From UHGV virus genome UHGV-0795592: a DNA stretch of 23,456 bases; one strand, written 5' to 3'. The stretch comes from a virus. The notes below the pieces were generated by a model. It was not told the origin of the DNA and ran no database searches. It saw only the letters and a list, made by a program, of their open reading frames with translations. Below are positions 16,851 through 17,881 of the stretch, in pieces. Each line of letters begins with the position of its first letter. Positions within the stretch are counted from its first letter, which is position 1. Both the position numbers and the translations under genes were made by a program.

Positions 16851-17291
16851 TTAGAATGGTTTTCTACGTTGCTTGTTAATATTAGCCTTCATAGCAGCTA
16901 AGTGGTTTTGCTGTTCAATCAGCCGTGAACGTTCTTGATGACTAAGTGCCATAGTGTTCACATTCTCAATCGCTTGAGTGGCTTGCTTTAAAGCTCGACC
17001 AATCTTGCCAGACATTTTACGTTTTGCAATAGTTGCTTGATGCTTAGGTTCAACCACACGATAACCAACACCCATTGAAGCAACCAGATAAATCTTCTCT
17101 TCTTTAAGAAGCTTCTCAATAAACTTCTCAAGTCGGTTTAGACGTGTAAGCGCATAAGCCTTCATTTCATCTTCGTACTTAACAATGTCACCTTGATAAG
17201 TTGGCTTCACAATACCTAAGAAGGTATCCATCTCAGAGTGTGATACAGTGTCACCGTAACTAAACTTTGCTGCTAATGCTTTTGTGTTCAT
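16851..17291 (-). CDS. hypothetical protein with a basic C-terminus
   Basis: 146 aa, ATG with Shine-Dalgarno GAAGGT. C-terminal K/R-rich tail (NINKQRRKPF). No recognisable motif. Confidence 0.5.
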   Translation of the reverse strand: MNTKALAAKFSYGDTVSHSEMDTFLGIVKPTYQGDIVKYEDEMKAYALTRLNRLEKFIEKLLKEEKIYLVASMGVGYRVVEPKHQATIAKRKMSGKIGRALKQATQAIENVNTMALSHQERSRLIEQQNHLAAMKANINKQRRKPF

Positions 17292-17293
17292 AA

Positions 17294-17881
17294 TTAAACG
17301 TTACCTTCTGAAATAACTTCTACAGAAAAACGACCAAAGCGTGGACGCCAATCACCTACACCACAAAGGTTACCAGCATTTTCCAGAACCATCAGAAGTT
17401 CCTCTCTGGTGATTTGCTCTTCATCAAACATCAAGCCAAACTCTACAGACCAATCACGGAAGATTGGACGGTAGCTCATAACTCGTGCTGTACCAATCTT
17501 AACAGACTTAGCATAGATAAAGTCTGGATTCTTAGCAAGTTCTTGTGGGTTTGCTGGACAGTTCTTGATAGTCATTGGGAAGACTACATCTGTCAGCATA
17601 ATGGCTCGGTCAATTACCTTACCAAGTTTGTTGAGTTTCGCACCAGACTTGATGCAAGCCTCAATCATCTCACCGTTCATAACAAAACCTAGTTGCTCAT
17701 CGTAGTAACAAGAGGTTACCAGTTGGCTTTCTGCTAAGAGCGCATAGTCTTCGTCAGTCTTTTTACGTTTACTGGACAGAGACTTGTGATATTTTGTCAG
17801 AGGGTTTAATGGGTCTGACAGCGTATCAGCGTGGCTCAGGAAAGGACGAGTACCAGTGATTTTGATATTTAACAGTTTCAT
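17294..17881 (-). CDS. hypothetical protein
   Basis: Start re-called to ATG at 17881 ([10 protein letters not shown]…) with GGAG about 9 nt upstream; the track start at 17896 is GTG. About 195 aa, no recognisable motif. Confidence 0.5.

What the first reader, a model, noticed from the sequence alone, without database searches (positions are those of the whole stretch)
16851..17881. Two-gene cassette of unknown function bracketed by the homologous repeat regions
The 195-aa and 146-aa ORFs sit between repeat regions A and B, which share the same element order. The 146-aa gene is followed by its own candidate terminator at 16824-16845. The arrangement resembles an insulated or recombinationally mobile cassette inside the replication operon. 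Neither protein has a motif I recognise; the 146-aa protein ends in a basic K/R tail that could bind nucleic acid. Unknown genes in early regions of virulent phages are where host-takeover and anti-defence functions are usually found.
Basis: partly seen in the sequence, partly recalled or inferred. Interest (0 to 1): 0.6.

Follow-up and report, generated by a model that had tools for sequence, protein, structure and literature searches.

The report
Phage VIPR guide-RNA silencing locus
The two "unknown" genes and the repeats around them form a VIPR system, a CRISPR-like RNA-guided DNA-binding machine first described in 2026 in the sister phage SUSP1; here four of its five guide RNAs point at parasitic satellite elements in E. 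coli chromosomes.

Summary
Two co-directional ORFs (195 aa and 146 aa, minus strand) sit between two homologous repeat regions, and a terminator follows the second gene. The repeats are not insulators. They are five guide-RNA genes (vrRNAs). Each has 11-17 GGYNN pentamers followed by a 38-nt pseudoknot tail.

The 195-aa protein is 98% identical to the solved "SUSP1 Vipr protein" (PDB 36pp). The 146-aa protein is 99% identical to SUSP1 Vap1. The window is therefore a type II VIPR locus (Viral Interference Programmable Repeat; bioRxiv 2026) in a Felixounavirus.

I applied the published 1-nt-skip code. Four of the five guides have targets with at least 81% NN match in ~13-kb satellite islands of E. 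coli chromosomes. Three of them (D3 and D2 strongly, D1 marginally) each hit a different large-serine-recombinase family, tied to the yecE, wrbA and tonB integration sites. The fourth hits a 184-aa satellite gene. The fifth guide (U2) has no identified target.

About half of related phages lack vipr-vap1 but keep one or two vrRNA units, which suggests deletion between repeated units. The system is already known, so interest is modest.

The parts
18266..18293 (-). Sigma-70-like promoter (TTGACA, 16-nt spacer, TATACT), a few bases after the DNA ligase stop codon. Probable start of the upstream vrRNA/vipr transcription unit.
   Evidence: 11 of 12 consensus positions. The same element sits at the same place in FO1a and JN01. 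Function is inferred.
18204..18240 (-). Leader element, type b (CATCACTTAAGAGTTTTTGAAAAGGGTTTTTAAGTGATG). An imperfect hairpin just 5' of vrRNA U1; its 3' arm runs into the first array units.
   Evidence: dG -9.5 kcal/mol, z -1.8. Role unknown: promoter, processing site or operator.
18081..18203 (-). vrRNA U1. Array of 17 GGYNN units at 18203-18119, 10 of them exact GGY. Pseudoknot tail at 18118-18081, followed by a T-run.
   Evidence: The guide matches a 184-aa satellite gene at 30 of 34 NN positions.
18047..18080 (-). Leader element, type a (TTTTTAAAAGGTCTTTAAGAGGGTCTTTTAATAA), 5' of vrRNA U2.
17954..18046 (-). vrRNA U2. Array of 11 units at 18046-17992. Tail at 17991-17954, with stems GTGG/CCAC and TGGTAG/CTACCA.
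   Evidence: No target was found. The guide is shared by about 14 phage records.
17912..17953 (-). Third variant of the leader element (TAAAGAGTCTTCTGTTGAGGGTTCTTTA), between the U2 tail and the vipr ribosome-binding site.
   Evidence: dG -10.2 kcal/mol, z -2.0.
17294..17881 (-). vipr: 195-aa RAMP-fold protein that polymerises on the vrRNA.
   Evidence: 98% identical to PDB 36pp_D, "SUSP1 Vipr protein" (E 2e-128). 13 of the 14 residues the structure paper names are present. The G-loop reads [13 protein letters not shown].
16851..17291 (-). vap1: 146-aa accessory protein. The model shows a winged-helix-like N-terminal part, a helical hairpin and a basic C-terminus.
   Evidence: 145 of 146 residues identical to the SUSP1 ORF downstream of vipr. 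AF2 model with a 65-sequence alignment, pLDDT 96.4. A homologue (hhalign 99.8%) lies next to a 49%-identical Vipr in an unrelated phage contig.
16815..16840 (-). Intrinsic terminator after vap1 (AGCCTCTTCGGAGGCT plus CCTTTTT).
   Evidence: A terminator is also annotated at the equivalent site in phage ASO1B.
16787..16820 (-). Leader element, type a, 5' of vrRNA D1.
16684..16786 (-). vrRNA D1. Array of 13 units at 16786-16722. Tail at 16721-16684.
   Evidence: Best target is the serine recombinase of tonB-site satellites: 21 of 26 NN overall and 19 of 20 over units 2-11. Support is marginal in the shuffle control.
16655..16690 (-). Leader element, type b, 5' of vrRNA D2. Its upstream end overlaps the end of the D1 tail.
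   Evidence: This copy folds weakly on its own.
16552..16654 (-). vrRNA D2. Array of 13 units at 16654-16590. Tail at 16589-16552.
   Evidence: Target is the serine recombinase of wrbA-site satellites: 23 of 26 NN overall, units 2-12 perfect. 18 E. coli genomes match at 100% over 35 nt.
16517..16551 (-). Leader element, type a, 5' of vrRNA D3.
16404..16516 (-). vrRNA D3. Array of 15 units at 16516-16442. Tail at 16441-16404, with stems AAGG/CCTT and TGGCAG/CTGCCA.
   Evidence: Target is the serine recombinase of yecE-site satellites: 28 of 30 NN overall, the first 13 units 26 of 26.
16360..16388 (-). Promoter-like site of the next operon (the 127-aa gene). It marks the downstream boundary of the locus.
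   Evidence: TTGACA, 17-nt spacer, TATTTT; 10 of 12.

Best explanation
Window 16404-18293 (minus strand) is a complete type II VIPR locus of a Felixounavirus. The order is: promoter, two vrRNA genes, vipr, vap1, terminator, three vrRNA genes.

Mechanism, taken from the SUSP1 work and not tested here:
- Vipr protomers polymerise along each vrRNA, one per GGYNN unit.
- They bury the GGY bases and present the NN dinucleotides.
- The NN dinucleotides pair with double-stranded DNA that reads NNxNNx..., with one skipped base per unit.
- The bound filament forms an R-loop triplex and blocks transcription without cutting DNA.
- Vap1, a probable DNA-binding protein, enhances the effect.

Shown here for this phage: four of the five guides are complementary, under that code, to ~13-kb satellite islands integrated in E. 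coli chromosomes. D3, D2 and D1 match three different large-serine-recombinase families, those of the yecE, wrbA and tonB integration sites. U1 matches a 184-aa gene at the head of the satellite's rightward operon.

Inferred: during infection the phage silences satellite genes. Silencing the integrase in particular would prevent excision and spread of a parasite that borrows the phage's tail parts.
For: Identity of the parts:
- The 195-aa protein matches PDB 36pp_D, "SUSP1 Vipr protein", at E 2e-128, with 4 differences in 195 aa.
- H17, K33, R39, E71, M72, K82, G87, K88, R138, C173, D177, W178 and R179, named as functional in 10.64898/2026.04.26.720927, are all present.
- Vap1 is identical to SUSP1's at 145 of 146 residues.
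- There are five phased GGYNN arrays of 11-17 units.
- Each array is followed by a 38-nt tail. Its two stems covary among the five copies in the window: three stem-1 types and four stem-2 types, all Watson-Crick.
- Gene order and vrRNA anatomy match the published SUSP1 locus.

Targets under the 1-nt-skip rule:
- D3 28/30, D2 23/26, U1 30/34, D1 21/26. Skip 0, 2 or 3 gives only background, about 60-77% match.
- In 200 shuffles of unit order, 0 reach the observed score for U1, D2 and D3, and 1 does for D1.
- BLAST with composite protospacers finds the same genes in 58, 73 and 156 E. coli genomes.
- For U1, D2 and D3 the skipped base falls on the codon wobble position.
- No self-target in the window exceeds 68%.

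The targets as satellites:
- Their baseplate protein is 70% identical to window ORF 2741-3538, and their tape measure 29% identical to window ORF 747-2741.
- They carry single vrRNAs with the same tail type but no vipr.
- Guides of SUSP1, E9, dune and ASO1B hit the same satellites.
Against: - Nothing was measured for this phage. Expression of the five vrRNAs, RNP formation and repression are extrapolated from SUSP1.
- U2 has no identifiable target.
- D1 has an internal mismatch against its best target and is only marginally above the shuffle null. Its skipped base is not on the wobble position.
- U1 carries 7 units with an imperfect GG.
- I scanned only 12 satellite loci plus targeted BLASTs, not the whole E. 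coli pangenome.
- The claim that silencing the recombinase blocks excision is my inference.
- About half of related phages do without vipr-vap1, so the system is dispensable.
Confidence: 0.92

Rival explanations
1. The pentamer arrays are iterons of a replication origin or plasmid-like partition site, and the two genes encode the proteins that bind them as DNA.
For: Short phased repeats lie next to replication genes (ligase, polymerase) on the same strand. The 146-aa protein looks winged-helix-like.
Against: The 195-aa protein is 98% identical to a protein solved in complex with RNA carrying these repeats. Only 3 of each 5 bases are conserved while the other 2 are hypervariable between near-identical phages; that pattern fits a guide, not a binding site. 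The variable bases spell out satellite genes. The tails show compensatory changes typical of RNA structure.
Confidence: 0.02
2. One reading: an insulated, mobile two-gene cassette with a host-takeover or anti-defence function. The repeats serve only as terminator/promoter insulators and as recombination substrates.
For: A terminator and promoter-like sites are present. The cassette is present or absent between the same flanks. No hit in Pfam, NCBIfam or PADLOC.
Against: As for the iteron rival. In addition, the published experiments show that Vipr plus one vrRNA suffice for programmable repression. The guides point at a mobile element, not at host defence genes.
Confidence: 0.04
3. The locus is a VIPR system, but in this phage it is partly decayed or idle. 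U1 is degenerate, U2 is an orphan, and the satellite matches are relics.
For: Only 10 of 17 U1 units have exact GGY. U2 has no target. Many relatives have lost vipr-vap1.
Against: The vipr and vap1 reading frames are intact and 98-99% identical to the experimentally active SUSP1 proteins. Imperfect units are also common in SUSP1's active vrRNAs (the paper notes "frequently observed internal degeneracy"). The NN positions of the imperfect U1 units still match the target. D2 and D3 match present-day satellites perfectly over 11 and 13 units.
Confidence: 0.1
4. A phage-borne CRISPR-Cas system or mini-array.
For: RAMP-type glycine-rich loop; repeats next to the gene; guide-like variable segments.
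Against: There are no 24-40-nt direct repeats separated by spacers and no cas1/cas2 or other cas genes. The guide is a 5-nt-period array.
Confidence: 0.01

Closest known systems
Type II VIPR system of Escherichia phage SUSP1 (bioRxiv 10.64898/2026.04.26.720920 and 10.64898/2026.04.26.720927; PDB 36pp)
   Same: Vipr is 98% identical and Vap1 99% identical. The gene order is the same (vrRNA, vipr, vap1, vrRNA array) and so is the genomic slot, between the DNA ligase gene and the 127-aa gene. The GGYNN arrays, pseudoknot tail types and leader elements are the same. The targets belong to the same satellite family.
   Different: The window has two upstream vrRNAs where SUSP1 has one. None of the five NN strings equals any of SUSP1's four. 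The window's set is a mosaic: D1-D3 as in phage SME50, U1 as in E9 and KEP1, U2 as in ECML-1 and others.
Class 1 CRISPR-Cas effector backbones (Cas7/Cas5 RAMP filaments on crRNA). The comparison is as made in the two preprints.
   Same: An RRM/RAMP-fold protein with a G-loop and a thumb polymerises along a guide RNA. It flips out bases at a fixed period and directs binding to double-stranded DNA.
   Different: No CRISPR array, no adaptation genes, no nuclease and no PAM. Only 2 of every 5 guide bases pair, and the target skips 1 of every 3 bases.
CRISPR-Cas carried by Vibrio phage ICP1 against the PLE satellite
   Same: A lytic phage carries an RNA-guided system whose guides are directed at a chromosomal satellite that parasitises it.
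   Different: ICP1 uses a nuclease-based, spacer-acquiring type I-F CRISPR-Cas system. Here the predicted outcome is transcriptional silencing, and no adaptation machinery is evident.

Membership tests
VIPR, type II (SUSP1 clade) | A Vipr protein: a minimal RAMP with an RRM core, glycine-rich loop and thumb | tested here: met
   E 2e-128 and 98% identity to the solved SUSP1 Vipr. 13 of 14 named contact residues are present. Position 175 is V in both the window and the PDB chain.
VIPR, type II (SUSP1 clade) | vrRNA genes made of tandem YNNGG/GGYNN units (9-16 reported), with conserved GGY and hypervariable NN | tested here: met
   Five arrays of 11-17 units. NN strings differ between phages whose vipr-vap1 DNA is 95-99% identical.
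VIPR, type II (SUSP1 clade) | An invariable structured 3' tail with a pseudoknot | tested here: met
   38-nt tails. Stem 1 (GTAG/CTAC, GTGG/CCAC, AAGG/CCTT) and stem 2 (four types in the window, a fifth in satellite tails) stay complementary through changes on both sides. The pseudoknot itself is inferred from covariation, not folded.
VIPR, type II (SUSP1 clade) | An adjacent vap1 accessory gene (predicted DNA binder) | tested here: met
   99% identical to the SUSP1 neighbour of vipr. A homologue is syntenic with a distant Vipr in L042. The winged-helix likeness is only weakly supported (Foldseek E at least 0.5).
VIPR, type II (SUSP1 clade) | Guides specify targets by the 1-nt-skip code, and natural targets lie in competing mobile elements | tested here: met
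   Four of five guides have at least 81% NN match in E. coli satellites at skip 1 only. Shuffle controls are clean for three and marginal for D1.
VIPR, type II (SUSP1 clade) | No self-targeting | tested here: inconclusive
   The best skip-1 match inside the 23-kb window is 59-68%. The rest of the phage genome is not in the window.
VIPR, type II (SUSP1 clade) | vrRNAs are expressed, bind Vipr and repress transcription of matching DNA | not testable with these tools
   Shown for SUSP1 in the preprints, not for this phage.
CRISPR-Cas | A repeat-spacer array and cas adaptation or effector genes | tested here: not met
   No such array in the repeat search. No Cas families in Pfam, NCBIfam or PADLOC.
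Known RNA families (Rfam 15) | A match to a curated covariance model | tested here: not met
   No match at E up to 1 in 16200-18400. vrRNAs are not yet in Rfam.

The most novel reading that the evidence does not exclude
Three points go beyond the text of the preprints.

1. The three downstream guides form a matched panel against the three serine-integrase families of the satellite (yecE, wrbA and tonB sites). VIPR here would act mainly by blocking satellite excision.

2. A conserved hairpin-forming leader (RGTCTT, 6-7 nt, GGGTYYTTTA, with covarying flanking arms) precedes every vrRNA and also vipr. It occurs nowhere else in the window. It may be the unit promoter, the RNA-processing signal or the Vap1 operator that makes vrRNA units modular and shuffleable.

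3. Felixounaviruses that have lost vipr-vap1 still keep one or two well-formed vrRNAs, as the satellites do. They may use Vipr supplied in trans by co-infecting phages.
Probability: 0.25. Interest if true: 0.55.

Novelty: already known. Interest (0 to 1): 0.3.

Why it matters
VIPR is a new class of programmable RNA-guided DNA binder and a proposed ancestor of the CRISPR RAMP proteins. This window shows a natural, intact example outside the type phage. Its guide set can be read directly, and this gives testable predictions: which satellites this phage should suppress, and through which genes. It also explains more than 100 GenBank phage records in which both genes are labelled "hypothetical protein" and the guides are unannotated or labelled "repeat_region". 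For the scan, the lesson is that the repeats and the cassette should have been read as one system.

Tried and rejected
- Profile libraries gave nothing useful for either protein. Pfam, NCBIfam and PADLOC had no hits; PHROGs gave only "unknown function" families 4652 and 5926.
- Rfam gave no match.
- U2 target search: exact gapped patterns found 0 hits for units 1-9, 2 for units 2-10 and 13 for units 2-9 in viral contigs, and 5 in genome contigs. All were in unrelated taxa, with no extension of the match, so they are at chance level.
- The one viral-contig hit for D1 (L008, GC 0.59) matched none of the 8 flanking NN positions and was rejected as chance.
- The orphan vrRNAs of FO1a and JN01 have no target above background in the 12 satellites.
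- The iteron/origin and CRISPR readings were considered and rejected (see rivals).
- The preprint's supplementary tables (data S3, target list) are not held, so I could not check whether these exact guides were among its 41.

Full report
**1. What is there.**
The window is from a Felixounavirus (FelixO1-like Escherichia/Salmonella myovirus). A 2-kb query around the finding matches 231 phage records at 80-99% identity. All genes in this part run on the minus strand.

Between the DNA ligase gene (18301-19440) and a 127-aa gene (15932-16315) lie two tightly packed ORFs: 17294-17881 (195 aa from the ATG) and 16851-17291 (146 aa). They are flanked by a 404-nt and a 535-nt non-coding stretch. A GC-rich hairpin plus T-run follows the 146-aa gene at 16839-16824, and a near-consensus promoter sits at 18293-18266 just after the ligase stop.

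Both non-coding stretches are built from homologous units of ~115-130 nt, and inside the units a motif recurs every 5 nt.

**2. Anatomy of the repeats.**
Read on the minus strand, each unit has three parts.
- A ~35-nt leader. Type a is TTTTTAAAAGGTCTTTAA(AC/GA)AGGGTCTTTTAATAA; type b is CATCACTTAAGAGTYTTTGAAAAGGGTTTTTAAGT.
- A run of 11-17 pentamers of the form GGYNN.
- A 38-nt tail, for example GGGTAGTTAGTCTCAGCTACATTAAAATGAGACTTACC.

There are two units upstream (U1 18203-18081, U2 18046-17954) and three downstream (D1 16786-16684, D2 16654-16552, D3 16516-16404).

In the tails, two interleaved stems stay complementary while their sequences change between copies. Stem 1 is GTAG/CTAC, GTGG/CCAC or AAGG/CCTT. 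Stem 2 is AGTCTCA/TGAGACT, TGGTAG/CTACCA, TAATCGG/TCGATTA or TGGCAG/CTGCCA. This is the signature of an RNA pseudoknot, not of a DNA binding site.

**3. Identification.**
Pfam, NCBIfam and PADLOC have nothing for either protein, and PHROGs places both in "unknown function" families. GenBank records call both "hypothetical protein".

The PDB sequence search was decisive. The 195-aa protein matches chain 36pp_D, "SUSP1 Vipr protein", at E 2e-128, with four substitutions in 195 residues.

Two 2026 preprints describe the system. VIPR stands for Viral Interference Programmable Repeat. It consists of:
- Vipr, a minimal RAMP-fold protein;
- an accessory gene, vap;
- vrRNAs made of 9-16 YNNGG repeats followed by a structured tail, with a pseudoknot in the SUSP1 clade.

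In SUSP1, four ~100-nt vrRNAs (one upstream, three downstream) are expressed during infection and co-purify with Vipr. One Vipr binds each repeat, sequesters GGY and presents NN. The NN bases pair with double-stranded DNA that skips one base per unit. Binding represses transcription on either strand, needs no PAM and involves no cleavage. Vap1 enhances protection.

The window's protein retains H17, K33, R39, E71, M72, K82, G87, K88, R138, C173, D177, W178 and R179, which the structure paper names as contacts. The 146-aa protein is identical at 145 of 146 residues to the SUSP1 ORF downstream of vipr, that is, Vap1. The SUSP1 locus, fetched and parsed the same way, has the same slot, the same leaders and the same tail types. 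The window therefore holds a type II VIPR locus of the SUSP1 clade.

**4. What the guides point at (my analysis).**
I converted each array to its NN string and scanned with 0-3 skipped bases.

A BLAST of the locus against 5,426 complete E. coli genomes found vrRNA-like sequences in unannotated DNA of 103 chromosomes. These lie in ~13-kb islands that carry:
- a large serine recombinase (Resolvase + Recombinase + Zn-ribbon domains);
- a tape measure and a baseplate protein;
- a few small genes;
- often a Dam-type methylase or an HNH endonuclease.

The islands are inserted at three sites: in yecE (a DUF72 gene), between wrbA and ymdF, and between tonB and yciI. DNA of this island family occurs in 547 of the 5,426 genomes.

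In 12 such loci the 1-nt-skip rule, and only that rule, gives outliers.

| Guide | Match | Target |
|---|---|---|
| D3 | 28/30; first 13 units 26/26 | recombinase of yecE-site islands, codons 82-96 |
| D2 | 23/26; units 2-12 perfect | recombinase of wrbA-site islands, codons 137-149 |
| D1 | 21/26; units 2-11 19/20 | recombinase of tonB-site islands, codons 238-250 |
| U1 | 30/34 | 184-aa gene that opens the island's rightward operon |
| U2 | 15/22 (background) | none found |

The controls were as follows.
- Skip 0, 2 or 3 gave about 60-77% match.
- Of 200 shuffles of unit order, none reached the observed score for U1, D2 and D3, and one did for D1.
- BLAST with composite protospacers found the same genes in 156 (U1), 73 (D2; 18 at 100% over 35 nt) and 58 (D1) genomes.

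The three recombinase families are only 27-35% identical to each other, so the three downstream guides are three separate solutions to one problem. For U1, D2 and D3 the skipped base is the codon wobble position; for D1 it is not. The last one or two units next to the tail (often GGTAA, GGTAT) usually do not match, which suggests they belong to the constant part.

The islands are plausibly satellites of this very phage. Their baseplate protein is 70% identical to window ORF 2741-3538, and their tape measure is 29% identical to window ORF 747-2741. This parallels the preprint's figures for SUSP1. The islands encode a single vrRNA with the same tail type but no vipr, and those guides hit other islands.

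Guides of SUSP1, E9, dune and ASO1B also hit these islands, at many different genes. This agrees with the preprint's statement that 18 of 20 assignable SUSP1-clade guides converge on a satellite.

**5. Mechanism, and what is shown versus inferred.**
- Shown here: identity of both proteins; presence, phasing and structure signals of five vrRNA genes; code-specific complementarity of four guides to satellite genes; absence of strong self-matches in the window.
- Taken from the preprints: expression, RNP formation, the pairing code, the triplex R-loop, repression without cleavage, and the Vap1 enhancement.
- Inferred by me: the phage uses the locus during infection to stop satellite gene expression. 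Silencing the integrase would keep the satellite from excising.

**6. Vap1.**
Close homologues are few, but an exhaustive search found 234 remote ones of similar length. With 65 of them as the alignment, AlphaFold gives a confident model (pLDDT 96.4). It has a small helix-strand-helix start, a long helix, a beta-hairpin "wing" (residues 68-80, with the nearly invariant G76-Y77 and P82) and two long antiparallel helices ending in the basic tail.

A Vap1 homologue (hhalign 99.8%) sits directly after a 49%-identical Vipr, with GGYNN-like arrays on both sides, in an unrelated metagenomic phage contig. The pairing of the two genes is therefore old.

**7. Variation among relatives.**
vipr-vap1 DNA is 95-99% identical in 110 records and 90-95% in 8 more. 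The guide arrays differ wholesale, and so does the number of units: SUSP1 1+3, the window and dune 2+3, E9 and ASO1B 2+2.

The window's guide set is a mosaic. D1-D3 equal those of SME50, U1 equals that of E9 and KEP1, and U2 recurs in about 14 records, sometimes in the last downstream position with a different tail.

Of about 260 records that share the neighbourhood, only 118 have vipr by DNA search, and the same number have it by tblastn at 90% identity or more.
- FelixO1-type phages (FO1a, JN01) keep a single unit between the ligase gene and the 127-aa gene. It consists of the ligase-side promoter, a type-b leader, a more degenerate array (about 50% exact GGY) and the D3-type tail.
- LF110P2 and KEP1 keep two well-formed units.

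These structures are what deletion by recombination between repeated leaders or tails would leave.

**8. Novelty and score.**
The system, its mechanism, its clade and its satellite targets are published as preprints from April to June 2026, with a deposited structure. The verdict is "already known".

What I could not find in the preprint text:
- the mapping of three guides onto three integrase families;
- the leader element;
- the second upstream vrRNA;
- the guide-only, vipr-less relatives.

These are modest additions, and some may be in figures or tables I could not read. Interest is 0.3.

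Noticed in passing
window 18240-18204, 18080-18047, 17953-17912, 16820-16787, 16690-16655, 16551-16517 (minus strand): A leader motif (RGTCTT, 6-7 nt, GGGTYYTTTA) flanked by covarying inverted arms (TTAAAAGGT/GTCTTTTAA, CATCACTTAA/TTAAGTGATG, TAAAGAGT/GTTCTTTA). It occurs six times, only in this locus: once before each vrRNA and once before vipr. Five of the six copies fold as ~12-16-bp A/U- and G.U-rich hairpins (dG -6 to -10 kcal/mol, z -1.5 to -2.1); the D2 copy folds weakly. 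It could be a promoter, a processing signal or an operator. The preprint text does not discuss it.
   Followed up: partly
L025 1180-1400 (Salmonella phage FO1a), L026 1180-1390 (phage JN01), L028 and L029 ~1290-1600 (LF110P2, KEP1): Relatives without vipr-vap1 keep one or two vrRNA units between the ligase gene and the 127-aa gene. The units are degenerate in FO1a and JN01 and well formed in LF110P2 and KEP1. KEP1 keeps a 22-unit version of the window's U1 guide. They look like deletions between repeated units. Whether the leftover guides still work, with Vipr supplied in trans, is open.
   Followed up: partly
window 17992-18046 (U2): The U2 guide has no detectable target, yet about 14 phage records share it at 93-98% identity. 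In L028 and L029 its NN bases are almost unchanged (one of 22 differs in L028), while several of the differences fall on GGY positions (GGT to TGT or GGC). This is the opposite of the usual hypervariability.
   Followed up: partly
window 747-2741 and 2741-3538 (plus strand): These ORFs (664 aa and 265 aa) are the phage tape measure and baseplate proteins. The satellite's copies are 29% and 70% identical to them. A 47-aa stretch translated from window 512-652, upstream of the 664-aa ORF, is 72% identical to part of the satellite tape measure.
   Followed up: yes
L009 10000-23450, L012, L016, L015 and others (E. coli chromosomes): A family of ~13-kb satellite islands at three integration sites (yecE, wrbA-ymdF, tonB-yciI), each site with its own large-serine-recombinase family (27-35% identical to each other). 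Island DNA is present in 547 of 5,426 complete E. coli genomes and is often broken by IS elements. Most island genes have no Pfam or PHROG match.
   Followed up: partly
L009 ~6087, L012 and L013 ~6308, L006 ~9233 (host DNA between torZ and cmoB): The vrRNA carried by the yecE-site satellites has its best match (22/26 NN) in host DNA a few kb outside the island, not in another island. No null was computed for this guide, so it may be chance.
   Followed up: no
L042 2830-2910 and 4070-4220 (JGI metagenome contig): A distant VIPR locus (Vipr 49% identical) in a phage contig, next to RecA-like, 5'-3' exonuclease and endonuclease VII genes. It shows the same order (vrRNA, vipr, vap1 homologue, vrRNAs), with G+C-richer GGYNN-like units.
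   Followed up: partly
GenBank records MN850636 (dune), MZ726792 (ASO1B), GU169904 ("Staphylococcus phage SA1"): The guide arrays are annotated, if at all, as "repeat_region", "promoter" or "terminator". E9 has short spurious CDS called across them. The 147-kb record named Staphylococcus phage SA1 contains this Felixounavirus locus at 97% identity, which suggests a mixed or mis-assembled record.
   Followed up: no
Preprint 10.64898/2026.04.26.720927, results text: The text names "T175" as a pyrimidine-pocket residue. Position 175 is valine in both the deposited SUSP1 chain and this window (CGVGDW). Probably a typo or a numbering slip.
   Followed up: no
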